A stretch of DNA of 64,000 nt, from the NCBI GenBank assembly GCA_000993405.1, contig LBWB01000009.1, positions 77,848-141,847 on the forward strand. The letters run 5' to 3'. Positions 1,412 through 39,182 of this stretch are shown piece after piece (the stretch's first letter is position 1; each line of letters opens with the position of its first letter). This DNA is from Candidatus Woesebacteria bacterium GW2011_GWB1_39_12 (GTDB lineage Bacteria > Patescibacteriota > Microgenomatia > UBA8517). The notes beneath the pieces were generated by a model that worked only from the letters and a program-made list of their open reading frames with translations, had not been told where the DNA came from and ran no database searches. Both the position numbers and the translations under genes were made by a program.

Positions 1412-2109
1412 TTAGGATTTGGTTTTATTCTTACTCTCACTCTTACTCTTACCACCCTTCCCATCCATTATCACATCTCTCATTAACTCCAACACATATT
1501 CCAGCGCCCTTGTTGCATCATCATTCATTGGAATTGGATAGTCAACTAGGGTCGGATCACAATTTGAGTCAACTAACGCAACTGTCTCAACTCCTACCAT
1601 AGCTGCTTCACTAACGGCCGTTTTCTCGCGTCTAATATCAATAATAATCAATATATCGGGAATCTTGCTCATCCCGACTATGCCGCCAAAAAAATTGGAA
1701 AGTCTCTGAATTTCTCGATCAATCAGAAGTCTTTCTTTTTTGGTTCTGTCATTAAAATCTCCCCTCTCCATCCCGCTTTTTAACTCTTGCAGCTTTTTTA
1801 CGGACTTAAGGATTTGGTCAAAATTAGTCAAAGTACCCCCAAGCCAGCGTTCATTAACGTAAAAAGAACCGGCTTCTTCGGCAATCTCTGCCAATTTATC
1901 CTTAACTTGTTTTTTTGTTCCTACAAAAAGAATTGTCTTACCCTCTTTTGATCTTCCAATTTCTCTTTAGTTTTGGTCAAATCAAAGATATGAACCCCAT
2001 CTTTTTCCCCATAAATATAAGGGGCCATCTTAGGATTCCAGCGTTTTACCTGATGTCCAAAATGTGCTCCAGCTGAAACTAATTCTTTGAGTGATACTTT
2101 AGTTGTCAT
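1412..2109 (-). CDS. rpsB: 30S ribosomal protein S2, interrupted by an apparent single-base frameshift near 1943-1947
   Basis: The N-terminal fragment (1921..2109, …[18 protein letters not shown]…) and the C-terminal fragment (1412..1920, …[12 protein letters not shown]…WLGGTLTNF…) are both clearly S2. They lie in different frames. Reading through, one extra G in the GGG run restores [10 protein letters not shown]. Confidence 0.85.
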
Positions 2110-2219: not shown

Positions 2220-3041
2220 TTAATTCTTTGCAGCTTCAACCAAATTTTCCAAAAGACATGAAATCGTAACTGGTCCGACGCCACCTGGAACGGGAGAAAC
2301 AAATGAAGCCTTTTCGTAAGCCCCTTTTTCAATATCACCATACGGTGCGCCAACGTCAATAACTACTGCGCCTTTTTTGATGTCATCTCTGCCGATAACT
2401 CCTGGTGAGCCGGTTACACTGATTAATATATCCGCCATTTTTGTCTTTTTCTTCAAATTTCCCGATTTACGATCTAATCCTTCAACTTCATATCCCATCT
2501 TTTTCAAATTTTGATAAATCTTTTTTCCCTCAAATCCCATCGCCCCAACAACTACTACTTTGCAGGGTCGTACCCTGTTTTTAATATAAGGTTTTCCTAT
2601 GCGAAGAATCTCCAAAACCGCTTTAACTGTTGGAGTCAAATGCAAACTGTCTTCACGAAGACCATCAACGTCTTTTTCTTTCGCGATTGTGTTAAGTATT
2701 TCATCTCTATCTCCTTTCGAAAAATTATCCGGTAGCGGCAACTGCACCATTATCCCGTGTACATTGTCATCATTGTTAAATTTTACAATTATTTTTTGGA
2801 TTTCCTTTTTACTTATACTTAGACTTAAACTTATCACTTCTACCTTCGCCCCTATTCTCTCTGCCACTTTTCTCTTGAGATTCACATACAGGGTACTTGC
2901 AGGATTATCCCCCACCAAAATCGATACCAACCTAGGAGTCACCCCCCCCAATCTCTTACGACCGAAGGTCGAATTCATCTCTTCTTTTAACTTATTCTCT
3001 TTTTCCCAAGCAAACGCTTTTCCGTCAAAAATATGTGTCAT
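2220..3041 (-). CDS. folD: bifunctional methylenetetrahydrofolate dehydrogenase/methenyl-THF cyclohydrolase
   Basis: 273-aa ORF; FolD family pattern (…ILVGDNPASTLYVNLK…, …VVVGAMGFEGK…, …GGVGPVT…). Confidence 0.9.
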   Translation of the reverse strand: MTHIFDGKAFAWEKENKLKEEMNSTFGRKRLGGVTPRLVSILVGDNPASTLYVNLKRKVAERIGAKVEVISLSLSISKKEIQKIIVKFNNDDNVHGIMVQLPLPDNFSKGDRDEILNTIAKEKDVDGLREDSLHLTPTVKAVLEILRIGKPYIKNRVRPCKVVVVGAMGFEGKKIYQNLKKMGYEVEGLDRKSGNLKKKTKMADILISVTGSPGVIGRDDIKKGAVVIDVGAPYGDIEKGAYEKASFVSPVPGGVGPVTISCLLENLVEAAKN

Positions 3042-3091
3042 ATTATTAAGAATTTTAATTCATTTGATAAAAGTAAACAATTATTGAAGCC

Positions 3092-3307
3092 TTAAATTTT
3101 ACTTACTGTTCTATTGCATCGTTCTTGTAGACTTTCAGGGTTCGATTGCGATTGTTCTCTAAACTCATCGTAATATCTTCTTCTTGTTTTATTGCTGATA
3201 AATCCTCCTCTATTTACCCACATCTTTAAAAGACACCTACCAGTTTCATAATTAGGACAGTTAATTCCGGCACACCAATCGGGTCTTTCGGAACCACCTT
3301 TTCCCAT
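3092..3307 (-). CDS. small Cys-containing hypothetical protein
   Basis: 71-aa ORF between folD and glyA on the same strand; no recognisable family; could be spurious. Confidence 0.3.
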   Translation of the reverse strand: MGKGGSERPDWCAGINCPNYETGRCLLKMWVNRGGFISNKTRRRYYDEFREQSQSNPESLQERCNRTVSKI

Positions 3308-3336
3308 AATAATTTCTATTCCTAAACAATCGGAAA

Positions 3337-4551
3337 TTAAGTATTTCTTGCATCTTTATTCTGTGGAAGTTTATACGCTTTAACATAGTCGATTACTTTT
3401 AAAATCCATTCAGCAATTTGCTCCATTTCCTTTTCCTTCATACCTCTTGCGGTTATTGCCGGCGTCCCCAGTCGAATCCCCGATGGATAAAAGGGTGGCA
3501 TCGGATCATTCGGAACCGAGTTTCTGTTAACAACAACTCCGGCTATCTCGAGTGCTTCTGCTACAACATTTCCGGAAAGTCCAAGCGGCATAAGGTTTAC
3601 TACTACTAAGTGGCTCTCAGTTCCGTCACCATAAAGGCTAAGGCCGCCCATTTTAAGAGCAACTCCTAAGGCTATAGCGTTTTTTACAACCTGTTTTCCA
3701 TATTTTTTGAATTCGGGCATTTCAGCTTTTTCAAGAGCAACAGCAATTCCTGCCGTTGTATTATTATGTGGCCCGCCTTGAAGACCAGGGAAAACTGCTC
3801 TATCAATTTTTGATGGCAACACCGGGTCCTTTTTTAAGCCTTTATTTGTCACCCAAATAATCGCTCCTCTTGGCCCGCGAAGAGTTTTATGAGTCGTTGA
3901 AGTAATAACGTGTGCATAATTAATTGGGGAAGGATAAGCACCTGCAACAATTAGACCAATAACATGAGAAATATCCGCAACCAACCAGGCACCTATCGAA
4001 TCAGCAATTTCTGAAAACTTTTTCCAATCAAAAGCCAAGGGATAAGCCGTAGTTCCTATAAGCATCAATTTTGGCTTCTCAACTTTTGCAAACTTGGCGA
4101 TTTTTGAATAGTTCAATCTCCCATCTTCATCAACGCCAAACTGTACAGACCTAAAGTATTTTCCAGAAAATGTAATGTCGGGGTGACCGTGAGTAAGATG
4201 CCCTCCAACTTTTAACTGCATCCCCATTACGGTTTCGCCAGGGTTGACTAAAGCAAAATAAACCGCTGAATTGGCAGGAGAACCGGAATATGGCTGAACA
4301 TTTGCATGAGGAGTTCCAAAAAGTTTTTTTGCCCTTTCAACTGCAAGCCTCTCAATGTCATCAACTATTTTGTTACCCTGGTAATATCGTGCACCCGAAT
4401 AGCCCTCTGAATATTTATGCATGAGGATTGATCCAACCGCTTCCCGAACCTCGGGATAGGTATAATTCTCCGACGGAATCATCATAAGCGTCTCCGCCTG
4501 CCTTTTTTCCTCTTTCTTAATTAATTCCAATATTTTATCCATGTATTTCAA
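3337..4551 (-). CDS. glyA: serine hydroxymethyltransferase
   Basis: 404-aa ORF; SHMT hallmarks (…LKVGGHLTHGHP…, PLP-lysine region …TTHKTLRGPRG…). Confidence 0.95.
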   Translation of the reverse strand: MKYMDKILELIKKEEKRQAETLMMIPSENYTYPEVREAVGSILMHKYSEGYSGARYYQGNKIVDDIERLAVERAKKLFGTPHANVQPYSGSPANSAVYFALVNPGETVMGMQLKVGGHLTHGHPDITFSGKYFRSVQFGVDEDGRLNYSKIAKFAKVEKPKLMLIGTTAYPLAFDWKKFSEIADSIGAWLVADISHVIGLIVAGAYPSPINYAHVITSTTHKTLRGPRGAIIWVTNKGLKKDPVLPSKIDRAVFPGLQGGPHNNTTAGIAVALEKAEMPEFKKYGKQVVKNAIALGVALKMGGLSLYGDGTESHLVVVNLMPLGLSGNVVAEALEIAGVVVNRNSVPNDPMPPFYPSGIRLGTPAITARGMKEKEMEQIAEWILKVIDYVKAYKLPQNKDARNT

Positions 4552-4576: not shown

Positions 4577-5494
4577 CTATATCCTCTCGGCTCGTCTTGA
4601 AGAAGCCTTGGAATCAAAGAAGAACTCGCGGGCAGGCCAATACTTTTCCCACCCCGGGGCAAGAGTGGACCAAGAATGTCTTACTCCTATCTCAAGCTCA
4701 TAATTTGCTCTGTTTAATATCTCTCCAATTGTACCCGTTTCTCCTTCTCTAAAAACTCTTCCCAGAACTTGCTCATTGAAATCAACAAAACGTCCACATC
4801 TTTCTCCATTTCCTCTAATACCCAGCCTTGGACCTACAGCTTCCAAAATTTGTCTACTTACACCTTCTGCTGACAAATTCTTCCTATCAATTACAACCCA
4901 ATCCTGCTCAAGCTGAATATAATGTTTTAGAATACCAGCTCTTGTATTATAGGCTGATCTATCTACTTCAAAAGAGTCGTCCTTTAAACCCCTATCTATA
5001 TCTCGTCGTGCCCGCGAGACATCTGCTTCTTTAGTACTAACATCCAAAAAGAATTTAAAGGTAGGAGTCCCTTCAAACAACGAAAAAAATTGCTTATCTA
5101 TTTCTTTTAAAAATCTAAACTCTTGACTAGCAGTAGTTTTGAATCTTTTCACCTCATCAAGTATCGACAGTGCATTACTGGAGGGCCACCTTTCTATAAC
5201 AAAAGACCATCCCATTACAATTCCACTTTCAATAAACTGGGAAATTTCACCACGGTTGACCGCGAAAAGTTCTTGCAACGATCTTCCCTTAGGAATAAGC
5301 GTATATCCGTCAGGCCTCAGGATTGATTCTAGAATTCGACCTGTCGGAGTTTCATAACAGGGAAGTTTTAAAGAACACACATCCATCCCTCTACTTACTA
5401 CTTCCTTAATCAGTAACTCTGCGGTTGTAGATTTGCCCGAGCCGCCCAGACCTTCCAAAACAATTGCAAGCTGCTGATTAGTCTTAGCTGACAT
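4577..5494 (-). CDS. thymidylate kinase-like P-loop kinase with ~90-aa C-terminal extension
   Basis: 305 aa; N-terminal AIVLEGLGGSGKSTTAELL resembles the dTMP kinase P-loop (IEGxxGxGKST); the C-terminal third is unrecognised. Confidence 0.6.
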   Translation of the reverse strand: MSAKTNQQLAIVLEGLGGSGKSTTAELLIKEVVSRGMDVCSLKLPCYETPTGRILESILRPDGYTLIPKGRSLQELFAVNRGEISQFIESGIVMGWSFVIERWPSSNALSILDEVKRFKTTASQEFRFLKEIDKQFFSLFEGTPTFKFFLDVSTKEADVSRARRDIDRGLKDDSFEVDRSAYNTRAGILKHYIQLEQDWVVIDRKNLSAEGVSRQILEAVGPRLGIRGNGERCGRFVDFNEQVLGRVFREGETGTIGEILNRANYELEIGVRHSWSTLAPGWEKYWPAREFFFDSKASSRRAERI

Positions 5495-5788
5495 CTCTGG
5501 CTAAAAATAGACTATTATTAGAAAAACCGCAAGAGTGCAAAATCAAGAAGTGTCAATTGGAATATAATTCTCTGACGGAATCATCATAAGGGTATCCCTC
5601 TGTCTCGTCCCCTCTTTCTTAATTAGCTCGAATATCTTATCTTCTTTTTTCATGGCTACTGATTAAAGCTTGGCCAAGCTGAGCTTGGTAAGCGTCTCTA
5701 TTTGTCTTTTCTCCTCCTTTTTAATTAATTCAAAGATCTTGTCCATGAGAGATAAAATTTGTTAAGTTAGATTAGCATTCTATTTTGT

Positions 5789-7504
5789 CTACATCAATGA
5801 CGGCAAAGGTTGTCTAACAAAATCTTCCGGTTGATTTACACAACTAATGTGTCCATTTTTGCAACATACTGGTTCATATTGCTCCTCACCCGCAACAAAG
5901 GTTTTGTCATCGTAATCAGCTATTTCCCCATACTGGTTATACCTTCGCGTTCCTTGTGCCTCGTTATCACAATACTTACAGGTAGTACCCAACTCTACCT
6001 CATGCCAATCTGGACGAACAGTTGCCTCTCTTATTAATTTATGAGCAAAATTAAATGGTTCTTCTTGGAATGTGTAGTCTATAAAATCGCAAACCACATG
6101 GAAACCCATCTGTCTTAACTCTTCAACTGAACTAACTGCCTCATCTGCGTCACTCTCATAAAACAACATTGTCTCATCAATAAATAAGTAAGTCTTTCTC
6201 GGATCAATATTATCAGACCCAATCCTTCTCTTCACATCCTCTAAAATCTCTGAAAGTTTATTACTCCATATCGTATTAGCCGGTATCTCCACACCGTCTC
6301 GATTTTTTAATTTAGTTTCATACTCGGGTCCGTATCTTAATGCTGCGGCAGGTTGAAAGGCTAAAATATTTTCATCTCCCACCATTTCGGAAATGTAAGT
6401 AAGCACACTTGTTTTCCCAGCAAACATACTTTTACTATGAGCAATAACTACTTGTGGTCCCATGTTTGGTGAAAAAATTCTACTTACTATATAATCAGCT
6501 ACTTCCTTTGGATCTTGCTTCAAATATTCTCCCAATATCTCAAGTTGATCTCTTATTGAAAACAAAGTTGCATACTTCAAATCTGGATTCCGATAAAATT
6601 CAGGAGGATCAACTACAATTGGCAAAACCTTTATACCTTCTTCTCTCAATGGTTCTATTGCTTCCCTCTCTACCCGAACCATCACCTCTAGATCCTCCAG
6701 TGTTATTTTTCTTTCCATGTCTCGAACTTTTGGATTCCCTTCTATCCTCTCCTGAAGTCCCTGATATAATCTCTCAACAGAAGTAGGAAGCATAAGGACC
6801 AATAAATCGGGTTTTGATATCAATGGTTTTAAAAGCTCAACTGTTTTTTTATAAACTTTATATTCTTCATCTGTAACTTGGCCTCCCTCCACCCTTGCTC
6901 TCATGAATATAAAATTATCCGACCAAACACTTGTGTCTCTCGCCCATCTCCCGTCATAAAGTTTTCCTCTTAACCCGGTAAAAATACTGTCTAAGCCAAA
7001 ACCTAGTTCTGTTCTTAACCAATAATCGTTGTCTGAATAAGCCAGGCTTAAAAAAGGATTCTCTGATGAATGAAAACGTTCGCTTTCCATTTTCGCTTTA
7101 ATTTCTGGCGAAACAAACTCTGTAAGAGTGGATTTACCAACTCCAACAACTCCTGCAGCTTCGAGTACGAATTCCTGTTTACCTTCCCCCATCATAATTT
7201 CACAAAACTCCGGGAAATTATCAAAAGGAGGCAAAGAATATTTTATAGAAAAAAGATTAAACGTCTTTTCGAATAACCCAATTTCATCCGGGGAAAATTG
7301 TGTATGAAAGTCTGTAAGCTGTCCTCTCACCAATTCTGTAAACTGTCTTTTCTGACCTTGATCTGCGTTTGAAAGAACCTCTTCTGACAAATTTAAAGTC
7401 TCGATAAAATTTGAAAATTCGCCCAAAAATACTTCTCTCGGAGCAAATTCTTTGGAAGCATAACCTTCTCTTTCAGGGGCAGCAGTTTTTCCCTGTGAAG
7501 TCAT
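5789..7504 (-). CDS. fusion protein: deoxynucleoside kinase-like domain (N) plus thymidine kinase TK1-type domain (C)
   Basis: 571 aa; N-terminal P-loop AAGVVGVGKSTLTEF is dNK/dCK-like. The C-terminal half has the TK P-loop VIAHSKSMFAGKTSV and a Cys4 zinc-ribbon lasso (…CKYC…CCKNGHISC…) typical of TK1. Confidence 0.7.
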   Translation of the reverse strand: MTSQGKTAAPEREGYASKEFAPREVFLGEFSNFIETLNLSEEVLSNADQGQKRQFTELVRGQLTDFHTQFSPDEIGLFEKTFNLFSIKYSLPPFDNFPEFCEIMMGEGKQEFVLEAAGVVGVGKSTLTEFVSPEIKAKMESERFHSSENPFLSLAYSDNDYWLRTELGFGLDSIFTGLRGKLYDGRWARDTSVWSDNFIFMRARVEGGQVTDEEYKVYKKTVELLKPLISKPDLLVLMLPTSVERLYQGLQERIEGNPKVRDMERKITLEDLEVMVRVEREAIEPLREEGIKVLPIVVDPPEFYRNPDLKYATLFSIRDQLEILGEYLKQDPKEVADYIVSRIFSPNMGPQVVIAHSKSMFAGKTSVLTYISEMVGDENILAFQPAAALRYGPEYETKLKNRDGVEIPANTIWSNKLSEILEDVKRRIGSDNIDPRKTYLFIDETMLFYESDADEAVSSVEELRQMGFHVVCDFIDYTFQEEPFNFAHKLIREATVRPDWHEVELGTTCKYCDNEAQGTRRYNQYGEIADYDDKTFVAGEEQYEPVCCKNGHISCVNQPEDFVRQPLPSLM

Positions 7505-7595
7505 TTTTCAATAATTAATAAACTCAAGAAATCTTACTTATCATAAATTATAAAATTAACTTGATTTATTCAATACACGCAGATAATATACAACC

Positions 7596-8432
7596 ATGAA
7601 AGAATACCTCGACCTAGTTGAAGATGTTATGACAAACGGAAAACCAAGGCAAGGACCAAAACCAGAAGGAACAATTGCTGTATTTGGAAGACAAGTAAGA
7701 TATAATTTAGCTGATGGTTTCCCCTTAATAACTACTCGCGACCTAAGTAAATCTTGGTTAAAAGTCATAGTTCCAGAACTTCTATGGATAATATCTGGTA
7801 GCACAAATGCAAACGACCTCCACAAGTATGGCAGTAATTTATGGGATAAATGGGCAAAGGCAGCCGAGGAAAAAGTCGGTTATCAAAATGGGGAGCTGGG
7901 TCCAATTTACGGCCATCAGCTTCGTAATTTTGGGGGACAAGTTGATCAACTTACACAAGTAATCGGAATGTTACAGCGAGAACCAGAAACACGCAGAGCA
8001 ATAATTAGTCTTTGGAACTTGAGTGATGTCGAGACCCCAGAAGGCAAACACACAGTAGATGTTGCGCCATGCATTGCAATGTTTCACTTTGCTCAAATGG
8101 GTGGAAAATTAGATCTTATAATGACCCAGCGAAGTGCAGATATCCCAATTGGTGTACCAAATGACGTTGCCGAGTGGGCGCTTTTTCAGATGTTAATTGC
8201 GAAAGAGGTTAATTTACCACCAGGAGAATTCATTCATAACCTAGATGACGCACACATCTATGTTGACCAAATCCCTGCTATGAAAGAGTTGCTTACAAGA
8301 GAACCCAAAGTGCGTCCAGATGTAACCATTGCAAACTCACTAACGGGAACTATTTATGACCATGTAGTGGAAGACTTTCAGCTACTCAATTACAACCCCC
8401 ATCCGCCAATTAAGATTCCCGTTGCTTTGTAG
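7596..8432 (+). CDS. thyA: thymidylate synthase
   Basis: 278 aa; ThyA family (…MKEYLDLV…, …PCIAMFHF…, …DAHIY…). Confidence 0.9.
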   Translation: MKEYLDLVEDVMTNGKPRQGPKPEGTIAVFGRQVRYNLADGFPLITTRDLSKSWLKVIVPELLWIISGSTNANDLHKYGSNLWDKWAKAAEEKVGYQNGELGPIYGHQLRNFGGQVDQLTQVIGMLQREPETRRAIISLWNLSDVETPEGKHTVDVAPCIAMFHFAQMGGKLDLIMTQRSADIPIGVPNDVAEWALFQMLIAKEVNLPPGEFIHNLDDAHIYVDQIPAMKELLTREPKVRPDVTIANSLTGTIYDHVVEDFQLLNYNPHPPIKIPVAL

Positions 8433-9252
8433 AGCTAACTCTTTTTAACTCAACTCCATTTTCTACCAAGAGTGGGACTGCCTCAGACAGTCCATATGAG
8501 TCTCTTTCAAAAATCACCGTTTTTATGCCCGCTCCTATTATTTCCATGGCACAGGGCCTACAAGGAAACTTAGTCGCATAAATAGTTGACCCTTCTAAAG
8601 AAATGCCATCTTTAGATGCATGGGATATTCCTACCCTTTCCGCATGCAAAGAATCACAAAATAACATCCTTTCACCAGGATTCAAATGTAATTCTCTGAA
8701 ATCTAATGGTATCTCTCTACAATTAGAGTTGTTAAAACTTGTAGATGCGCTTTCCAGTAAAACACCATCACCCCTAACAAAGACGCAGCCTGCAGGATCC
8801 AACCAGCAATTACTTGATTCGGCCGCCCTTCTAGCCTTCGCTATCATTTCCACATCAAATGGGTCGGTCGATTCATTAATTGGAACTCCTGTGTCAATTT
8901 CCTCTGCAATCGCTCTCTCTGGTTTACTCCATCTTACTTGCCCCTCTATTTTCACAAGAGCCCAGTTATTTCCCACCTCTTGGTTTGCGGATTCGTAGTC
9001 CAGAGGCATTACTCCTTTTAACCGTTCTGTTACTGAAGCCAAAATCTGGGCTTTTGCCCAGCCCCTAGTACCTTTTTGGTATTGATAATCTGGCATTACC
9101 AATATCGCATCAATACCTACTTCAGTAATCATTTCCTTAAATTCACGGAGATTAACACAGCTTATATTTCTTTCATCGCATACAAGTAACATCAGTCGAG
9201 CTTTTTCTGATACATTTAGACTCTCTGGTGATAAGACATCAAGCTCTCTCAT
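8410..9252 (-). CDS. dCMP deaminase domain protein with ~130-aa unknown N-terminal domain
   Basis: The C-terminal half has the cytidine/dCMP deaminase zinc motifs HAE…PCRPCA. The track ORF starts at 9357. An internal ATG at 9250-9252 shares the TG of the upstream HIT gene stop in an ATGA overlap, so I take 9252 as the start. It is convergent with thyA. Confidence 0.7.
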   Translation of the reverse strand: MRELDVLSPESLNVSEKARLMLLVCDERNISCVNLREFKEMITEVGIDAILVMPDYQYQKGTRGWAKAQILASVTERLKGVMPLDYESANQEVGNNWALVKIEGQVRWSKPERAIAEEIDTGVPINESTDPFDVEMIAKARRAAESSNCWLDPAGCVFVRGDGVLLESASTSFNNSNCREIPLDFRELHLNPGERMLFCDSLHAERVGISHASKDGISLEGSTIYATKFPCRPCAMEIIGAGIKTVIFERDSYGLSEAVPLLVENGVELKRVSSTKQRES

Positions 9253-9737
9253 TTTTCTAGTGCGCCTCTCAATCTCTCTGCTAAATCTAAAGGGGTAATA
9301 CTGATTTCCTGAAAATGCCAAGTATTTAATCCCTCGATATATGGCATTATATTCCAATGTAAGTGGCTTACGGTTTTTCCAGCTATAGGCCCTTGACGTA
9401 AAATAATCCAGTAATTTTCAATTTCAAGCTCTCTTTGAAGAAGCCCAATCCCAGTTTTAACTAACTCATGTCCAGCTAAAACATCTTCATTAGTTAAATC
9501 ATGATAGTTTTCAATATGTCTCTCGGGAAGTACTAACACTTGACCATCAATGTAGGGGAAAATATTTACAGTCAAAATCCACTGGTCTTGTTTGGTAACA
9601 ACGTACTTGTCTCTTAAGTCACAAAAAACACACTTGCCAACATTTTCAGCAATATTGTGATATTTCCCCTCTAATCTCGCGTTGAGCTGATTTTTAGTCC
9701 TAAATGGATCATCTCGATCTACCATAAAATTAGGCAC
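9249..9737 (-). CDS. HIT-family (histidine triad) nucleotide hydrolase/transferase
   Basis: 162 aa; histidine triad SHLHWNIMP near the C-terminus. Confidence 0.8.
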   Translation of the reverse strand: MPNFMVDRDDPFRTKNQLNARLEGKYHNIAENVGKCVFCDLRDKYVVTKQDQWILTVNIFPYIDGQVLVLPERHIENYHDLTNEDVLAGHELVKTGIGLLQRELEIENYWIILRQGPIAGKTVSHLHWNIMPYIEGLNTWHFQEISITPLDLAERLRGALEK

Positions 9738-10395
9738 TTTTATTTCTTTCTGACATGAACCTTTGGAAATCGGAAATTATTTGTTGTGTATTTTGTTCAG
9801 ATATCTTATGAATTATATCTGTGGTTGAAAGAAAAGGATCCTGTCTTGGGGTACGGAAAACTTGTCCTCCTATTTCGGTCATTGCTATAACTTCCGCTTT
9901 GGTTTCAATATCGCCCTCCCAACTTCCTTCAACACACAGGTAGGTATCAGGTTTTAAGATTCTTATTACCTCGGCTCCATTATCTTCAGGAAAAGGAGTA
10001 ATATAATCCACAAACTGTATAAAACTTAGCATTTCCGCTCTCTCACTCTCTCTCAAAACAGGTCGATTTGGTCCCTTCAGTCTCTTTACAGATTCGTCAG
10101 TGTTGAGTCCTACAAAAAGCACGTTTCCCAATGATCTTGCCAACTCCAAATACCTGGCATGTCCAATATGGACCATATCAAAAACACCAGTTGTAAATGA
10201 TAGTTTGTATCCTCTTCTTCTCAAGAAATCGCCTACTGAAGCAAGTTCCCCTCTAGGTATTAATTTATTTTGTAATAATGGGTGTGTTTCCTTTGTTGAA
10301 TTTCCTTCAAGAAAATGAATACTTACCTCATTTCCTCCTATCTTAACCTTTAATCCAAGCGGTCTTTCCATGCTTACAAAGATAGTTATTATCAA
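9730..10395 (-). CDS. nucleotidyltransferase of the cytidylyltransferase superfamily (HxGH motif; RfaE domain II/TagD-like)
   Basis: 221 aa; …GVFDMVHIGHARYLELAR…VGLNTDESV… matches the (H/T)xGH cytidylyltransferase fold signature. Confidence 0.6.
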   Translation of the reverse strand: MIITIFVSMERPLGLKVKIGGNEVSIHFLEGNSTKETHPLLQNKLIPRGELASVGDFLRRRGYKLSFTTGVFDMVHIGHARYLELARSLGNVLFVGLNTDESVKRLKGPNRPVLRESERAEMLSFIQFVDYITPFPEDNGAEVIRILKPDTYLCVEGSWEGDIETKAEVIAMTEIGGQVFRTPRQDPFLSTTDIIHKISEQNTQQIISDFQRFMSERNKSA

Positions 10396-30072: not shown

Positions 30073-32754
30073 TCACAACTGTGTTCCATAGTTGTTCAAC
30101 CATATTACATAGTCTACGCCATCAACTCGTCCATCAGAGTTAAAGTCTGCGTCAGATGACCCATTTGAGGTAGTTACACCATAATGATTGAGCCAGATAA
30201 CATAATCGATTCCATCAACACGGCGGTCGTTATTAGCATCACCCAGGATGGGTACTAGGGTTGGTATTGGTGTTGAGCTAGACTGATTATTAAATGCTAT
30301 CTGGTAACTTCCGCTTGATATCCGTATTCTAACCCAGTCAGTTCCGCTGGAAAGAGGGGTCTGAGCTTGACCATTCAAATAGATTGTTATCAATCCCGGT
30401 CGATAAAAAGTAATATCGCTTCCTTGAGAAATAACATTTCCTCCCTCATCACTCATATACAAACTAACCGAGTTCGTGGCTTCAAAACCTCTTTGAGGAG
30501 TGGCGGAATCGCGAAACAAACTTCCCTGGCGGACAAAGTAAGCGCTAGTTTGAGAATTCTGGGTTCTGTACCAAACCGCTTTCCCTCGAAAAGTCACTAA
30601 GTCATGCCGGATATCCGAAGTTGGAGCAGAAGATTCCAGGGCTGTGTCAAAAATACTTGCTGGATGTTGTACGGATGCTCCTGTGTAATTGCTCCCGCTC
30701 AGGCGGGAAAAACCGGCTGCGGCATGAGTGCTATCGTAAGGAAAAACAACAGTTACAATATTCTTCCGGCTACTGCTAAGCGGATAGGTAGAAAAAATGT
30801 ACTTGCCCACATAAGGAGCGTGGTCATCATAGTATTCCCAATGACAAAGTGCTCCGTCAAGAAGATCCACTCTTTGAGGCGGTGTGGCCAAAAATACGCT
30901 TATGCCAGCGCTTTGGTTGGTGAAAGCCACCGAACAAGAAAAAGGGTCGCCTGTTTCGGGATCATAGCAAGTCCGAGGAGTTGCGGGAATTGGAGCCCGG
31001 TATTCCTGATTTGAACTGACGGCAGCAGTCAAATCTGAATTTGGGTGTAAAGCAATATGGGCAGTACTTGTCCCGGCATTACCGGTTATTTCATCAAACA
31101 GTATAAAATAGCCGTTACTTCCAATTTGCGGGTGGACAAAAATAAAATTACGCTGATGCTTACCATTGGGTAAAGCCAGCCCGGAATCCCCGGATGCATA
31201 ATCAATTCCATTTCCGGTAAACCCTTCGCTAATTCCAGCACCAAACTTATACCGATGGTCATTTGCTTCACTTGGATCGTTCGGGTTACCAATATTGTAA
31301 TTTATCAGTGCCGTATTATTTCCTACCGCCCGGTGCGTCATATAGTTAGTGGAAAACCCTAAACACTCATCCGCCCCTTGGGCTCCCCCAGCCCCTTTGA
31401 AACCTACATTTAGAAGAAGCGGCTCTCCGTAAGCAGATACATGTATCGAGTTGGTATCATTGTGGGCATGGAAATAAACCATATTTGGGTCATTAAAATA
31501 CTCTTCGGTTGCCTTTACGTTCCACAAAGCGCCGTACAATGAATTTTTAGTCAAATTGTGGTCCATAAAAAAAGCTCCTCCGTCATTAAATATTCTGCTG
31601 ATTGGGGCAGTCGGAGCCGGCAAAGGATATGATAATAAAACATATTGGAGCAGTCGCCCCGGAAGAAATATCGGGTCTTGAGAAGGTTTGTCTGCAAACT
31701 GCGTCCGCCGCCACATGGCATATTGTCCGGCCTCTTGACTAAACTTGGATGCCTGTCCCGTATGAGCAGTATGTATTGTATAGTAGCCGAAATTCTCCGA
31801 CCAAACCGGGTAAAAATCCGAGCTGTCACCAAAGGGGGCTTGAATCCCTGCCGGGGTGGAAGCATAGCCAAAAAGCCACTCATACAGGTTTTGATATTTG
31901 GGATCTTGATAAAAACTGTAGTTGTCTGCTACCCCGTTCCCGTCAAAATCGATATTTCTAATGATATTGGTGTGTTCCAAAATATCTATAATATGAGATC
32001 TTTCCCCCCGCTGGTGTGCAAAAGCTACGGTACCGTAAAAAGGTCCCTCGTAATAAACCCCGTCCGGAGTAAAAAGCATATCCATCTGGGGCTTATAACC
32101 CACTATGGGCCGATAATCATCTCTCTGACCCCCTTTCACTAACGCATTAATATAAGGATCACTTGCGTCTTTACCTTTGTAAATGTTCCAAACCAACTGT
32201 GTGCCTTCAAATGCGGGTGGGTTGGCTGGAGGGGCATTGTAGTAGTGGTTATATTCCTGAAGTAACCAATTTTCTGCGCTGGTTTTCTCTGCTAAGGTTA
32301 AATCGTTGTAAATAATATCCATAGCCAGGATAGAATCTAAAAAAGCGGCGGCCGGAGCCATAAAGAAGGCTGCGGAGTAATTTGGTGTGCGCTGAACTAC
32401 CAAAATATCAGCCCACATCGGCATCACATTTAGAATTTTCTGTTTATACTGCATACGGTTAGCATCATCTAGTATAAAAGCCAAGGAACAGGCACTCATA
32501 ATATTTTGCATTCGGTACCCTTTATCGTAATCCTGAAGGTCGCCTGGGCTATAGGTTAAATTTTGACAATCGAAAATGGCATCGGCTTTCATACTTGACC
32601 AAGGCTCTTGACTGGCCCGGGCTCTGAGAGCAGGTAATTGGTCTGCACTGACAAGCATAAAAGGATGTGCCGGAGTCTGGGCAGAAATTAGATTAGTAAA
32701 TGCAGTAATCTGAAATAAAACCAAAACACCAACCAATATGACAAAGGTATGCAT
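30073..32754 (-). CDS. secreted putative polysaccharide lyase/hydrolase (heparinase II/III-like guess) with C-terminal dockerin
   Basis: 893 aa; signal peptide. The C-terminus GDANNDRRVDGIDYVIWLNHY…DFNSDGRVDGVDYVIWLNNY is dockerin-type. The catalytic family is assigned only by loose resemblance. Confidence 0.5.
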   Translation of the reverse strand: MHTFVILVGVLVLFQITAFTNLISAQTPAHPFMLVSADQLPALRARASQEPWSSMKADAIFDCQNLTYSPGDLQDYDKGYRMQNIMSACSLAFILDDANRMQYKQKILNVMPMWADILVVQRTPNYSAAFFMAPAAAFLDSILAMDIIYNDLTLAEKTSAENWLLQEYNHYYNAPPANPPAFEGTQLVWNIYKGKDASDPYINALVKGGQRDDYRPIVGYKPQMDMLFTPDGVYYEGPFYGTVAFAHQRGERSHIIDILEHTNIIRNIDFDGNGVADNYSFYQDPKYQNLYEWLFGYASTPAGIQAPFGDSSDFYPVWSENFGYYTIHTAHTGQASKFSQEAGQYAMWRRTQFADKPSQDPIFLPGRLLQYVLLSYPLPAPTAPISRIFNDGGAFFMDHNLTKNSLYGALWNVKATEEYFNDPNMVYFHAHNDTNSIHVSAYGEPLLLNVGFKGAGGAQGADECLGFSTNYMTHRAVGNNTALINYNIGNPNDPSEANDHRYKFGAGISEGFTGNGIDYASGDSGLALPNGKHQRNFIFVHPQIGSNGYFILFDEITGNAGTSTAHIALHPNSDLTAAVSSNQEYRAPIPATPRTCYDPETGDPFSCSVAFTNQSAGISVFLATPPQRVDLLDGALCHWEYYDDHAPYVGKYIFSTYPLSSSRKNIVTVVFPYDSTHAAAGFSRLSGSNYTGASVQHPASIFDTALESSAPTSDIRHDLVTFRGKAVWYRTQNSQTSAYFVRQGSLFRDSATPQRGFEATNSVSLYMSDEGGNVISQGSDITFYRPGLITIYLNGQAQTPLSSGTDWVRIRISSGSYQIAFNNQSSSTPIPTLVPILGDANNDRRVDGIDYVIWLNHYGVTTSNGSSDADFNSDGRVDGVDYVIWLNNYGTQL

Positions 32755-32763
32755 TTTTTCTCT

Positions 32764-38413: not shown

Positions 38414-38420
38414 AAATAAA

Positions 38421-39182
38421 TTATATTCTTCTTTTCCTACCAATCCTACCAATAAAATAGCCCGACAGACCACCGGAGATAAGTAAACCAAAAACTACCA
38501 AAAAATATATATAACTATTACCACTCAATTTACTGTCGTTATCGTCGCTTTTAATGGTCAGGCTATCTTCCGCCCCCTTAACGATTCCTTCTTTTTTCCT
38601 AAACGGATTCAGTTTTGAAGATGTGTCTTTATCGGAAGTATTGTCCGATGTCACACTAACACCAGGCGTCAACTCTGAAGCAGGACTCTCAACTTTAACT
38701 AGCAGGCTGCCGGTTCTTATTAAGATATCGACGCCCTCAGAAACAACAACATTGCTATCAGTTGAACTCCCGGGTGAAAAGTCAAAAGAAACATTTGTCG
38801 ACTCGGTTCTTTCTCTTCCCTCAAAAGTTATTTTTGCAACAGATTTCTTCTCGGTTGTAAAAACGCTATAGTCGTTTGAAAATGCGATTTCGACCGAGCC
38901 GCTATCGTTGTCGACCGATTGTGCCGGTGAAGTCGAAAATGCTTTTAAATCCTCGATTTCTATAACTTTTACATACTTGGGGTCATACTTTATAAAAAGG
39001 TCTATTCCGATAACTTCAGCGCCACCAGGATCCAGAACTACATCGACTTTCTTCTGACTGCCTTCGGCAAGCGATATAGCATTTTCGGAAAAAGAGATCG
39101 AGGAATTTGTAGCTAAAGCCGTCCTTGAAAGGCCGAAAAGCAGTAGGAACGAAAGAAAAAAAACCTTTTTTGCATCAGTCAT
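38421..39182 (-). CDS. membrane-anchored cohesin-domain protein: signal peptide, one cohesin, C-terminal TM anchor
   Basis: 253 aa; …VDVVLDPGGAEVIGIDLFIKYDPKYVKVIEIED… matches the cohesin signature (cf. GIANCDFVFRYDPNVLEII); C-terminal TM then RIGRKRRI. Confidence 0.6.
   Translation of the reverse strand: MTDAKKVFFLSFLLLFGLSRTALATNSSISFSENAISLAEGSQKKVDVVLDPGGAEVIGIDLFIKYDPKYVKVIEIEDLKAFSTSPAQSVDNDSGSVEIAFSNDYSVFTTEKKSVAKITFEGRERTESTNVSFDFSPGSSTDSNVVVSEGVDILIRTGSLLVKVESPASELTPGVSVTSDNTSDKDTSSKLNPFRKKEGIVKGAEDSLTIKSDDNDSKLSGNSYIYFLVVFGLLISGGLSGYFIGRIGRKRRI

What the first reader, a model, noticed from the sequence alone, without database searches (positions are those of the whole stretch)
5789..7504. 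Deoxynucleoside kinase fused to a TK1-type thymidine kinase in one 571-aa polypeptide
The N-terminal ~330 aa has a dNK/dCK-type P-loop (GVVGVGKSTLTEF). The C-terminal ~230 aa has the TK1 P-loop (MFAGKTS) and a Cys-rich lasso or zinc ribbon (CKYC…CCKNGHISC). A single protein covering both purine/pyrimidine dNK and TK activities is unusual. It would suit a salvage-dependent, biosynthetically reduced organism.
Basis: partly seen in the sequence, partly recalled or inferred. Interest (0 to 1): 0.55.

Follow-up and report, generated by a model that had tools for sequence, protein, structure and literature searches.

The report
Two-kinase fusion for DNA-building-block salvage
A tiny-genome groundwater bacterium (Candidatus Woesebacteria) encodes one 571-residue protein that joins two different kinds of deoxynucleoside kinase; this rare, conserved arrangement probably lets it recycle DNA building blocks, but it has never been tested at the bench.

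Summary
Window 5789-7504 (minus strand) is one intact 571-aa ORF. It has a 105-aa helical N-terminal extension, a non-TK1 deoxynucleoside-kinase (dNK) fold (about residues 106-322), a linker helix and a TK1-type thymidine kinase (about 351-571). Both halves pass Pfam's curated cut-offs. A confident AlphaFold model (pLDDT 90.8) matches solved TK1 and dNK structures, and none spans both.

It is not an artefact. The identical protein (GenBank KKQ98603.1, Ca. Woesebacteria) occurs on 17 contigs. About 30 homologues at 32-53% identity keep the same single chain.

The fusion is rare. I found about 20 representative clusters among 1.84 billion proteins and 8 of 185,579 species genomes, apparently all Patescibacteria/Microgenomates. 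In the window's clade it sits in a conserved thymidylate cluster (thymidylate synthase, Tmk, SHMT, FolD, dCMP deaminase).

Each half keeps its P-loop lysine, catalytic base and most substrate contacts, but each lacks one canonical residue. The dNK (D/E)R(S/T) arginine is Thr, and TK1 Asp58 is Ala.

The best reading is a bifunctional deoxynucleoside kinase (confidence about 0.6). A helper or pseudo-kinase half, or altered specificity, remain possible. I found no publication describing it. I class it as a new variant of a known kind, of moderate interest.

The parts
5789..7504 (-). Whole ORF, 571 aa plus stop codon: dNK-like/TK1 fusion protein (identical to GenBank KKQ98603.1 / UniRef A0A0G0M355)
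7190..7504 (-). N-terminal extension, residues 1-105. Residues 1-17 are disordered, followed by helices 23-45, 49-66, 72-88 and 98-105. It has no family match. It is conserved in the family (E74, L77, L84, K88) and is also present in the stand-alone dNK-like relatives.
6539..7189 (-). Non-TK1 deoxynucleoside-kinase fold, residues ~106-322
   Evidence: Pfam PF01712; profile vs 8puu E 6.5e-15; Foldseek 8puu target TM-score 0.80
7127..7153 (-). dNK P-loop G118-VVGVGKS-T126. K124 is invariant in 31/31 sequences.
7007..7015 (-). R164-T165-E166. The Arg is family-specific and invariant, two residues before the base-binding Gln position. That position is Gln in 28/31 sequences but Glu in this window.
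6917..6937 (-). D190-T191-S192...D196. This aligns to the DRS/DRT...D motif of solved dNKs. The motif Arg is replaced by Thr in 28/31 sequences and is never Arg. D196 corresponds to the base-binding Asp (Giardia dAK D114).
   Evidence: PMC11662666
6713..6760 (-). LID region G249...R253...R261..E264. These correspond to Giardia dAK R169, R171 and E174 and are all invariant.
6455..6538 (-). Inter-domain linker, residues ~323-350, including helix 332-343. It has a conserved 'LGxLxELLxPxPE' stretch that also occurs at the N-terminus of the stand-alone TK1-like relatives.
5792..6454 (-). TK1-type thymidine kinase domain, residues ~351-571
   Evidence: Pfam PF00265; profile vs 8y7w E 1.1e-18; Foldseek 2uz3 target TM-score 0.78
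6407..6439 (-). TK1 P-loop H356-SKSMFAGKTS-366. K364 and T365 are invariant. The first Walker glycine (hTK1 G26) is Lys358 here and is never Gly in the family.
6335..6343 (-). A388-L389-R390. R390 corresponds to hTK1 R60 and is invariant. A388 occupies the position of hTK1 D58, the 3'-OH contact (Ala 28/31, never Asp).
   Evidence: PMC9190010
6173..6181 (-). I442-D443-E444. E444 corresponds to hTK1 E98, the catalytic base (Glu in 29/31 sequences).
5969..5980 (-). First zinc-ligand pair C509-x-x-C512 (invariant)
5840..5866 (-). Second zinc-ligand cluster C547-C548...H552..C555, following the lasso Tyr543
7596..8432 (+). Divergently transcribed thymidylate synthase ThyA. In relatives the same position holds ThyX or a ThyA fusion.
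4577..5494 (-). Downstream thymidylate-kinase-like gene (305 aa, with a ~90-aa C-terminal extension)
8410..9357 (-). dCMP/cytidine deaminase family gene, part of the conserved cluster. The true start is probably near 9255.
2220..4551 (-). FolD (2220-3041) and SHMT/GlyA (3337-4551): C1-folate supply for thymidylate synthase, conserved next to the fusion in L001

Best explanation
The gene encodes a bifunctional deoxyribonucleoside kinase of a Candidatus Woesebacteria (Patescibacteria/CPR) cell.

Inferred mechanism:
- The C-terminal TK1 domain uses ATP to phosphorylate thymidine and deoxyuridine. It has a P-loop Lys364/Thr365, catalytic base Glu444, transition-state Arg390 and a zinc-stabilised lasso.
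- The N-terminal non-TK1 dNK domain phosphorylates one or more of the other deoxynucleosides. It has a P-loop Lys124, general base Glu142, LID Arg253/Arg261 and the 3'-OH contact Glu264. Base contacts at positions 166 and 196 resemble those of dC/dA-type kinases.
- Joining them in one chain fixes a 1:1 ratio. Together with the conserved helical N-extension and linker, it probably builds a fixed higher-order assembly.
- In the window's clade the gene belongs to a thymidylate module. Here dT/dU enters through the TK1 half. dC would enter through the dNK half and then pass through dCMP deaminase and thymidylate synthase. Both routes converge on dTMP, which the adjacent Tmk then phosphorylates.

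Shown here: the architecture, the fold, conservation, rarity, taxonomic range and gene context. Inferred: both catalytic activities, substrate range, oligomeric state and pathway coupling.
For: Architecture and fold:
- One intact ORF.
- Both Pfam domains score above their curated cut-offs.
- Each half's profile matches solved enzymes end to end.
- The model is confident, with pTM 0.83, so a fixed inter-domain arrangement is likely.
- Foldseek finds both TK1 and dNK structures, and nothing in the PDB or viral libraries covers both halves.

Purifying selection on both active sites across 31 sequences at 32-53% identity:
- dNK half: K124, R164, D196, R253, R261 and E264 are invariant; E142 is kept in 30/31.
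- TK1 half: K364, T365, R390, R402, D443, C509, C512, R520 and C547 are invariant; E444 is kept in 29/31.
- The residue roles are taken from PMC11662666 and PMC9190010.

Each half also exists as a stand-alone gene with the same special features, so each module is viable alone.

Gene context is conserved at 41-47% identity: topA, thymidylate synthase (ThyA, ThyX or a ThyA fusion), the fusion gene, Tmk, C1-folate genes and rpsB.

CPR bacteria often cannot synthesise nucleotides (PMC7304191).
Against: - No activity data exist for any member.
- The dNK half lacks the arginine of the (D/E)R(S/T) motif that every solved dNK in my alignments has (Thr191).
- The window's copy has Glu, not Gln, at the base-binding position 166, and Ser rather than Arg or Asn at position 173.
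- The TK1 half lacks Asp58 (Ala388), the 3'-OH contact named in PMC9190010, and it lacks the first Walker glycine.
- Tandem TK1 proteins with one dead domain are a known precedent.
- The thymidylate context is absent in the more distant clade (L003, L008, L009, L011, L012).
Confidence: 0.6

Rival explanations
1. Only one half is a working kinase. The other is a non-catalytic helper or regulatory pseudo-kinase that stabilises the protein, raises substrate affinity or senses dNTPs. This would parallel the tandem TK1 proteins of Trypanosoma brucei and Giardia, where one TK1 copy is dead.
For: - Each half lacks one canonical residue: the DRS Arg is Thr191, and TK1 D58 is Ala388 with the first Walker Gly lost.
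- PMC9190010 describes inactive TK1 partner domains that increase the affinity of the active one.
- The non-catalytic dNK homologue NDUFA10 appears among the PDB hits of the dNK half.
- dNKs bind their end-product dNTPs as feedback inhibitors.
Against: - Both P-loop lysines, both catalytic bases, the LID arginines and the zinc site are invariant or nearly so across 31 diverged sequences. That conservation is not expected of a dead domain; the dead Giardia copy 'lacks many important residues'.
- Both modules also occur as stand-alone genes.
- Many ordinary-length dNK-fold proteins also lack the motif Arg, so its loss is a trait of a large clade rather than a sign of decay.
Confidence: 0.2
2. 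Both halves are active, but their specificity differs from the textbook dT plus dC/dA/dG. With the active sites remodelled, one or both halves might accept ribonucleosides, 3'-modified or base-modified nucleosides. Alternatively the dNK-fold half might act on dNMPs, as in the WSSV TK-TMK chimera.
For: - The TK1 residue that reads the 3' position (D58) is Ala.
- The dNK Tyr that contacts the 3'-OH, and that modelling suggests would clash with a 2'-OH (Giardia Y73), is Gln in 11/31 family members.
- The motif Arg is lost, and a family-specific invariant Arg164 is gained.
- Positions 166 and 173 vary between clades.
- The viral library hit list includes WSSV 'dTMP kinase', a known TK-TMK chimera (that it is a chimera is from my own knowledge).
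Against: - The N half scores as dNK and gives no Thymidylate_kin hit at E<=0.1.
- A separate Tmk gene lies next door.
- NMP kinases also rely on the motif Arg that is missing here (established knowledge of TMPK 'DRY').
- The window's own copy keeps Tyr156 and Glu264, which bind deoxyribose.
Confidence: 0.15
3. Artefact: two adjacent genes were joined by a sequencing or assembly frameshift.
For: - The window does contain an apparent 1-nt frameshift in rpsB near 1945, so its sequence may not be error-free.
- A T6 run lies at the domain junction.
Against: - The identical 571-aa protein is on 17 contigs from several independent sources.
- Thirty homologues with different DNA keep one chain and align through the junction.
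- The frame across the T6 run matches conserved residues on both sides.
Confidence: 0.01

Closest known systems
Bacterial TK1-type thymidine kinases (Ureaplasma 2B8T/2UZ3, S. aureus 3E2I/8Y7W, B. cereus 2JA1)
   Same: Same fold (target TM-score 0.75-0.79). The P-loop Lys/Thr, Arg60 equivalent, IDE catalytic base, zinc-ligand pairs (Cys-x-x-Cys plus a Cys/His cluster) and lasso are all present.
   Different: Here it is the C-terminal half of a 571-aa chain. The Asp58 equivalent is Ala, and the first Walker Gly is Lys/Glu/Pro/Thr/Gln. Identity is only about 22-27%. It is preceded by a conserved linker helix.
Non-TK1 deoxynucleoside kinases (Giardia dAK 8PUU, M. mycoides dAK 2JAQ/2JAS, Drosophila dNK 1J90, human dCK)
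   Same: Same fold (target TM-score 0.79-0.80). It has the P-loop, the Glu general base, Asp196 at the base-binding Asp position, LID Arg-x-Arg..Glu, and the Gln base contact in most family members.
   Different: The motif Arg of (D/E)R(S/T) is Thr. The Arg at Gln+7 is Asn or Ser. There is a new invariant Arg at Gln-2. It also has a 105-aa helical N-extension, a 6-residue insertion in the LID, and it is fused to TK1.
Tandem TK1 proteins of Trypanosoma brucei and Giardia intestinalis (PMC9190010)
   Same: A TK1 domain is covalently joined to a second nucleoside-kinase-like domain, in organisms that lean on deoxynucleoside salvage. The extra domain there raises affinity and stability.
   Different: There the partner is a second, degenerate TK1 copy. 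Here it is a different fold (dNK) with a well-conserved active site, and the host is bacterial, not eukaryotic.
White spot syndrome virus TK-TMK chimeric protein (own knowledge; WSSV entry seen)
   Same: TK1 is fused to a P-loop kinase of the dNK/TMPK superfamily, coupling steps of dTTP supply in one chain.
   Different: Its partner is a thymidylate (dNMP) kinase placed C-terminal to TK. Here the partner scores as dNK, not Thymidylate_kin, it is N-terminal, and a separate Tmk gene is adjacent.
Giardia dAK tetramer with N/C-terminal extensions (PMC11662666); Lactobacillus heterodimeric dAK/dGK and dAK/dCK (own knowledge)
   Same: Oligomerisation or pairing of deoxynucleoside kinases through extra segments is an adaptation to salvage dependence. 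The terminal extensions matter for affinity.
   Different: Those are non-covalent assemblies of the same fold. Here two different folds are joined covalently, and the role of the N-extension is untested.

Membership tests
TK1-type thymidine kinase (Pfam PF00265) | Sequence score above the curated family threshold | tested here: met
   48.6 bits vs cut-off 20.6, residues 359-549 covering profile positions 9-174 of 176. It falls far below the NCBIfam equivalog cut-offs (63 vs 183), so it is a divergent member.
TK1-type thymidine kinase (Pfam PF00265) | TK1 fold: alpha/beta P-loop domain plus a zinc-bound lasso domain | tested here: met
   Foldseek: 2uz3_B E 6e-11, target TM-score 0.78; human TK1 1w4r and 1xbt are also hit. 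The model has pLDDT 90.8.
TK1-type thymidine kinase (Pfam PF00265) | ATP-binding P-loop Lys and Ser/Thr (hTK1 K32, S33) | tested here: met
   K364 and T365 are invariant in 31/31. However, the first Walker Gly (G26) is Lys358 here and is never Gly in the family.
TK1-type thymidine kinase (Pfam PF00265) | Asp58 contacting the 3' position of deoxyribose (PMC9190010) | tested here: not met
   The aligned position is Ala388 (Ala 28, Ser 2, Gly 1 of 31). Two independent alignments to S. aureus 'IDDRY' and Ureaplasma 'IDTR' agree.
TK1-type thymidine kinase (Pfam PF00265) | Arg60 (transition state) and Glu98 (catalytic base) (PMC9190010) | tested here: met
   R390 is kept in 31/31; E444 in 29/31, with Asp in the other 2.
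TK1-type thymidine kinase (Pfam PF00265) | Four zinc ligands (C-x-x-C ... C-x-x-C/H) | tested here: met
   C509, C512 and C547 are invariant; H552 is kept in 30/31 and C555 in 29/31. Which of H552 or C555 is the fourth ligand is not resolved.
TK1-type thymidine kinase (Pfam PF00265) | Thymidine/deoxyuridine kinase activity | not testable with these tools
   This needs an enzyme assay.
Non-TK1 deoxynucleoside kinase (Pfam PF01712, dCK/dGK/dNK family) | Sequence score above the curated family threshold, and the fold | tested here: met
   43.5 bits vs cut-off 27. Profile vs 8puu E 6.5e-15. Foldseek 8puu_A target TM-score 0.80, 2jaq 0.79, 1oe0 0.79.
Non-TK1 deoxynucleoside kinase (Pfam PF01712, dCK/dGK/dNK family) | P-loop Lys and conserved Glu general base ('EP' motif) | tested here: met
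   K124 is kept in 31/31 and E142 in 30/31.
Non-TK1 deoxynucleoside kinase (Pfam PF01712, dCK/dGK/dNK family) | Arginine of the (D/E)R(S/T) motif (Giardia dAK R109 contacts the alpha-phosphate via water) | tested here: not met
   It is Thr191 (Thr 28, Ser 2, Met 1; never Arg). In the hmmalign set of 181 dNK domains, 59 have Arg here. Among the 122 that lack it are many ordinary ~200-aa dNK-fold proteins, none of them solved.
Non-TK1 deoxynucleoside kinase (Pfam PF01712, dCK/dGK/dNK family) | Base-binding Gln and Asp (Giardia Q84, D114) | tested here: inconclusive
   D196 is invariant. The Gln position is Gln in 28/31 sequences but Glu166 in the window's protein.
Non-TK1 deoxynucleoside kinase (Pfam PF01712, dCK/dGK/dNK family) | LID arginines and the Glu that binds the 3'-OH (Giardia R169, R171, E174) | tested here: met
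   R253, R261 and E264 are invariant. Most members have a 6-residue insertion between the two arginines.
Non-TK1 deoxynucleoside kinase (Pfam PF01712, dCK/dGK/dNK family) | Deoxynucleoside kinase activity and substrate range | not testable with these tools
   This needs an enzyme assay.
TK-thymidylate kinase chimera (WSSV type) | The partner domain is a thymidylate kinase (PF02223) | tested here: not met
   The fusion protein gives no Thymidylate_kin hit at E<=0.1. The separate neighbouring gene does.
Tandem TK1 (T. brucei / Giardia type) | Two TK1-derived domains in one chain | tested here: not met
   There is only one TK stretch. The other domain has the dNK fold.

The most novel reading that the evidence does not exclude
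The family could be a co-evolved two-headed nucleoside kinase with non-canonical chemistry or specificity. Its signature changes are the dNK motif Arg replaced by Thr alongside a new invariant Arg164, TK1 Asp58 replaced by Ala, and a conserved N-extension and linker. Under this reading it would be, for example, a broad-spectrum kinase that no longer reads the 3'/2' sugar positions strictly and so serves both ribo- and deoxyribonucleoside salvage. Alternatively it would be an allosterically coupled pair in which one site controls the other. Either way it would give CPR bacteria most of their nucleoside-kinase capacity in one protein.
Probability: 0.15. Interest if true: 0.6.

Novelty: new variant of a known kind. 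Interest (0 to 1): 0.4.

Why it matters
Deoxynucleoside kinases come in two unrelated structural families, TK1-like and non-TK1-like. In all characterised organisms these are separate proteins.

A conserved natural fusion of the two, in bacteria that often cannot make nucleotides, would be a compact single-polypeptide salvage enzyme. It could also be a natural experiment in coupling the two families.

If both halves are active, it is a candidate single-gene tool for making several dNMPs or for activating nucleoside analogues. It would also help in reconstructing how CPR bacteria obtain DNA precursors.

The active-site deviations define a larger uncharacterised dNK clade whose chemistry is unknown. 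These are the Arg-less dNK motif, shared with many ordinary-length homologues, and the Asp58-less TK1.

The sequences are already public with automatic names ('thymidine kinase', 'deoxynucleoside kinase'). The advance would therefore be biochemical rather than conceptual, so I rate the interest as moderate.

Tried and rejected
1. Frameshift or assembly artefact: rejected.
2. Rosetta-stone test, asking whether the stand-alone halves are encoded side by side. The stand-alone TK1-like genes P0070/P0178 are flanked by a nitroreductase and an unrelated ORF, and the downstream ORF is not dNK-like (hhalign probability <2%). The stand-alone dNK-like genes P0048, P0068 and P0056 are followed by ABC-transporter or other genes, and tblastn finds no TK1 remnant in those loci. 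So I found no adjacency evidence.
3. 'Arginine relocation', the idea that R164 compensates for the lost motif Arg. R164 is indeed specific to this family (79 of 122 Arg-less domains, against 4 of 59 canonical ones). However, the tools return no model coordinates, so I could not measure the geometry. Other Arg-less dNK-fold proteins have His or Lys there, so compensation remains unproven.
4. Two-stretch hits of 395-490 aa as possible independent dNK-TK fusions. Most are dNK-dNK or dNK-AAA tandems. Only P0087 is a reverse-order TK1-dNK fusion.
6. Promoter and terminator scan of 5400-7700: promoter-like sites were fewer than in shuffles and there were no terminators, so it was uninformative.
7. 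Paralogues in the window: none.
8. Literature: five searches found no description of a dNK-TK1 fusion. The library covers open-access papers only.
9. Defence-system or prophage reading: rejected, because the locus is flanked by rpsB-tsf-frr, topA, dprA, a PBP gene and mreB, and is syntenic across genomes.
10. Ribonucleotide reductase: none of the window genes I scanned is one. The rest of the genome could not be examined.
Full report
OBSERVATION. Window 5789-7504 holds a single minus-strand ORF of 571 aa with an ATG start. Pfam places a dNK domain (PF01712) at residues 117-275 (43.5 bits, cut-off 27). It places a TK domain (PF00265) at residues 359-549 (48.6 bits, cut-off 20.6). NCBIfam thymidine-kinase equivalog models hit only far below their cut-offs (63 vs 183 bits), so the TK1 half is divergent. 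One refinement: the 'N-terminal ~330 aa' consists of a 105-aa extension with no family match, followed by a ~215-aa dNK fold.

NOT AN ARTEFACT. An exact-sequence look-up shows the same 571-aa protein on 17 contigs (longest 144 kb) from NCBI, JGI, ENA and Logan. It is deposited as KKQ98603.1/KKR00788.1 from Candidatus Woesebacteria ('hypothetical protein') and as UniRef A0A0G0M355 (auto-named 'thymidine kinase'). A homologue search returned 34 proteins. About 30 of these are full-length single chains with both Pfam domains at 32-53% identity, named Woesebacteria, Microgenomates or Patescibacteria where a name exists. They align without breaks through the domain junction, which carries its own conserved motif (IRxxLGILxELLxPxPE). 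The junction DNA contains a T6 run near 6475, but the frame on both sides matches conserved residues of homologues whose DNA differs. The caution was reasonable, because the window does carry an apparent 1-nt frameshift in rpsB near 1945.

ACTIVE SITES. I built separate profiles of each half and aligned them to solved enzymes. I took residue roles from two papers: Giardia dAK (PMC11662666) and Giardia TK1 (PMC9190010). I then tabulated residue states across the 31 family members.

In the dNK half:
- P-loop K124 is kept in 31/31.
- The general base E142 is kept in 30/31.
- D196 (Giardia D114, base contact) is kept in 31/31.
- R253, R261 and E264 (Giardia R169, R171, E174; LID and 3'-OH contact) are all kept in 31/31.
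- The base-binding Gln (Giardia Q84) is Gln in 28/31 but Glu166 in the window's protein.
- The Arg at Gln+7 (Giardia R91) is Asn in 29/31 and Ser in the window.
- The arginine of the (D/E)R(S/T) motif (Giardia R109) is Thr191 (28 Thr, 2 Ser, 1 Met; never Arg).
- An Arg two residues before the Gln (R164) is invariant.

In the TK1 half:
- K364, T365, R390 (hTK1 R60), R402, D443, C509, C512, R520 and C547 are invariant.
- E444 (hTK1 E98, catalytic base) is kept in 29/31, H552 in 30/31 and C555 in 29/31.
- The first Walker glycine is Lys, Glu, Pro, Thr or Gln.

So each half retains the core catalytic apparatus under strong purifying selection, yet each has lost one textbook residue.

HOW SPECIAL IS THE ARG LOSS? 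Of these, 59 have the canonical Arg and 122 do not. The Arg-less set includes the fusion family and its stand-alone siblings (mostly 'DTS' with R164). It also includes many ordinary 200-215-aa dNK-fold proteins reading 'DTP' or 'DVP', usually with His at the R164 position. None of the Arg-less proteins is close to a solved structure. The best PDB matches of one of them (P0096) all carry DRS, DRT or ERS. The loss is therefore a trait of a large uncharacterised clade rather than a sign of decay in this one protein. Whether R164 compensates could not be tested without coordinates.

DISTRIBUTION AND EVOLUTION. A profile search of 1.84 billion representative proteins found about 20 full-length fusion representatives of 535-698 aa. 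A pattern scan of one genome per species (185,579 species) confirmed only 8 loci. These are Woesebacteria, Roizmanbacteria, Microgenomates and Patescibacteria bins, plus three MAGs titled 'uncultured Gammaproteobacteria'. At least one of those three (L004/L007) shows the same CPR-type synteny, so I suspect those titles are wrong.

The same profile search also recovered other forms:
(i) About 16 stand-alone proteins of 300-350 aa, comprising the N-extension plus the dNK-like fold with the same MLRSQ/SDTS signatures.
(ii) Stand-alone TK1-like proteins of 263-324 aa that start with the 'linker' helix and also lack Asp58.
(iii) One reverse-order canonical TK1-dNK fusion, P0087 (422 aa, from a Logan contig, origin unknown), whose dNK half also lacks the motif Arg.
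Other two-stretch hits are dNK-dNK or dNK-AAA tandems.

Three stand-alone dNK-like genes are complete genes followed by unrelated genes, with no TK1 remnant nearby. Two of them lie in the same YebC, DUF5656, ABC-transporter neighbourhood as the fused gene of L003. A rough neighbour-joining tree without bootstrap places the stand-alone forms scattered inside the fused clades. The whole family is monophyletic relative to canonical dNKs. That favours an ancestral fusion with repeated loss of the TK1 half. Stand-alone TK1-like genes are not adjacent to dNK-like genes, so there is no operon-type Rosetta-stone evidence.

GENOMIC CONTEXT. The window is a cellular Patescibacteria genome. The order of genes is frr, tsf, rpsB, folD, glyA, a tmk-like gene, the fusion, thyA (divergent), dCMP deaminase, HIT, a cytidylyltransferase, NUDIX, topA, dprA, a PBP gene and mreB. 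Relatives at 47% and 41% identity keep the frame topA, thymidylate synthase, fusion, Tmk, C1-folate genes and rpsB-tsf-frr. The thymidylate synthase itself is swapped, however. It is ThyA here, a 614-aa ThyX in L001, and an MtrA-ThyA-pterin-binding fusion in L004. This links the fusion functionally to dTMP/dTTP supply. It also shows that this organism is not solely salvage-dependent for thymidylate. The distant clade (L003, L008, L009, L011, L012) lacks this context. The window has no paralogue of either half, and none of the genes I scanned is a ribonucleotide reductase.

MECHANISM. The most likely reading (about 0.6) is a bifunctional deoxynucleoside kinase. The TK1 half would phosphorylate dT/dU. 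The dNK half would phosphorylate one or more of dC, dA and dG; its invariant Asp196 and the Gln/Glu at 166 resemble dC/dA-type base recognition. In the window's clade this would feed the neighbouring enzymes. One route runs from dC to dCMP, then through dCMP deaminase to dUMP and through ThyA to dTMP. The other runs directly from dT to dTMP. The adjacent Tmk then acts on the dTMP. Fusion gives fixed stoichiometry. By analogy with the Giardia dAK tetramer, whose terminal extensions raise affinity (PMC11662666), and with tandem TK1s (PMC9190010), the N-extension and linker may build an assembly with higher substrate affinity. The architecture, conservation and context are shown; all the activities are inferred.

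The rivals are:
- One half is a non-catalytic helper or sensor (about 0.2). The missing residues and the tandem-TK1 precedent support this. The near-invariance of both catalytic sets and the independent existence of each module weaken it.
- Specificity is altered, for example toward ribonucleosides, modified nucleosides or dNMPs (about 0.15).
- Artefact (about 0.01).

COMPARISON AND NOVELTY. By sequence threshold and by fold, the halves are members of the TK1 and non-TK1 dNK families. Each fails one defining-residue test, so they are best described as divergent subfamilies. The known covalent TK1 fusions differ from this one. TK1-TK1 tandems in T. brucei and Giardia have a degenerate TK1 partner. 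The WSSV TK-TMK chimera has a thymidylate-kinase partner. Five full-text searches found no description of a dNK-TK1 fusion or of these CPR proteins. The sequences are public and automatically annotated; JGI even labels some 'thymidine kinase/deoxyadenosine/deoxycytidine kinase'. I therefore rate it a new variant of a known kind. It is rare, conserved and biochemically untested, with moderate interest (0.4). The most novel reading not excluded is a co-evolved two-site kinase with non-canonical sugar or base specificity, or with allosteric coupling. I give that about 0.15 probability.

Noticed in passing
window 1436-2109 (minus strand): The ribosomal protein S2 gene (rpsB) is split between two reading frames. 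Residues 1-56 are in one frame (2109..1942) and residues 62-232 in another (1951..1436). The shift lies within 'aaattggaagatcaaaagaggg' at about 1945-1960. This is either a 1-nt sequencing or assembly error or a genuine frameshift in an essential gene.
   Followed up: partly
window 7596-8432; L001 6160-8004; L004 6431-7945: The thymidylate synthase at the same locus position differs between related genomes. It is ThyA here, an unusually long 614-aa ThyX (Thy1 domain) in L001, and a 504-aa MtrA-ThyA-pterin-binding (DUF4346) fusion in L004. The last hints at an unusual C1 carrier.
   Followed up: no
window 4577-5494 (minus strand): The thymidylate-kinase-like protein is 305 aa. The Tmk domain covers residues 13-216 (39 bits), followed by a ~90-aa C-terminal extension with no family match. 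Tmk in L001 and L004 is only 211-226 aa.
   Followed up: no
window 8410-9357 (minus strand): In the dCMP/cytidine deaminase ORF, the deaminase domain is at residues 170-283 and the N-terminal ~130-170 aa match no family. The L004 homologue (272 aa) aligns from about 9255, so the listed TTG start, which overlaps the HIT gene at 9249-9737, is probably too far upstream.
   Followed up: partly
proteins P0096, P0098, P0106, P0108, P0116, P0140, P0141 and others (one search hit list): A sizeable group of ordinary-length (~200-215 aa) dNK-fold proteins has D-T-P or D-V-P in place of the canonical D/E-R-S/T motif. None is close to a solved structure. This is an uncharacterised Arg-less dNK clade.
   Followed up: partly
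protein P0087 (422 aa, Logan contig of 15 kb): This is a reverse-order fusion: a canonical TK1 with Asp58 present ('KPRLDNRYG'), followed by a dNK-fold domain that also lacks the motif Arg ('QDVS'). It looks like an independent TK1-dNK fusion of unknown taxonomic origin.
   Followed up: partly
L017 2916-4047 and L018 4006-5000: About 1 kb upstream of the stand-alone dNK-like genes has no called gene, between DUF5656 and the kinase gene. No TK1 similarity was found there. The content is otherwise unexamined.
   Followed up: partly
window 30073-40683 (minus strand): A run of very large proteins (893, 981, 929 and 502 aa) carries dockerin, cohesin and PQQ-like beta-propeller domains. This suggests a cellulosome-like surface assembly in a CPR bacterium. 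The 893-aa protein has no Pfam match.
   Followed up: no
L005, L007 (= L004 contig), L012: Three MAGs carrying the fusion are titled 'uncultured Gammaproteobacteria'. At least CAYGWK010000003.1 has the same CPR-type synteny as the Woesebacteria loci, so these are probably taxonomic mislabels.
   Followed up: partly
L004 4356-5141; window 9730-10395: The cytidylyltransferase-like gene next to HIT and dCMP deaminase carries an ATP-cone domain in L004. ATP-cones are typical of allosteric dNTP regulation, as in ribonucleotide reductases. The window's 221-aa homologue has ~65 N-terminal residues before the transferase domain, which I did not examine.
   Followed up: no
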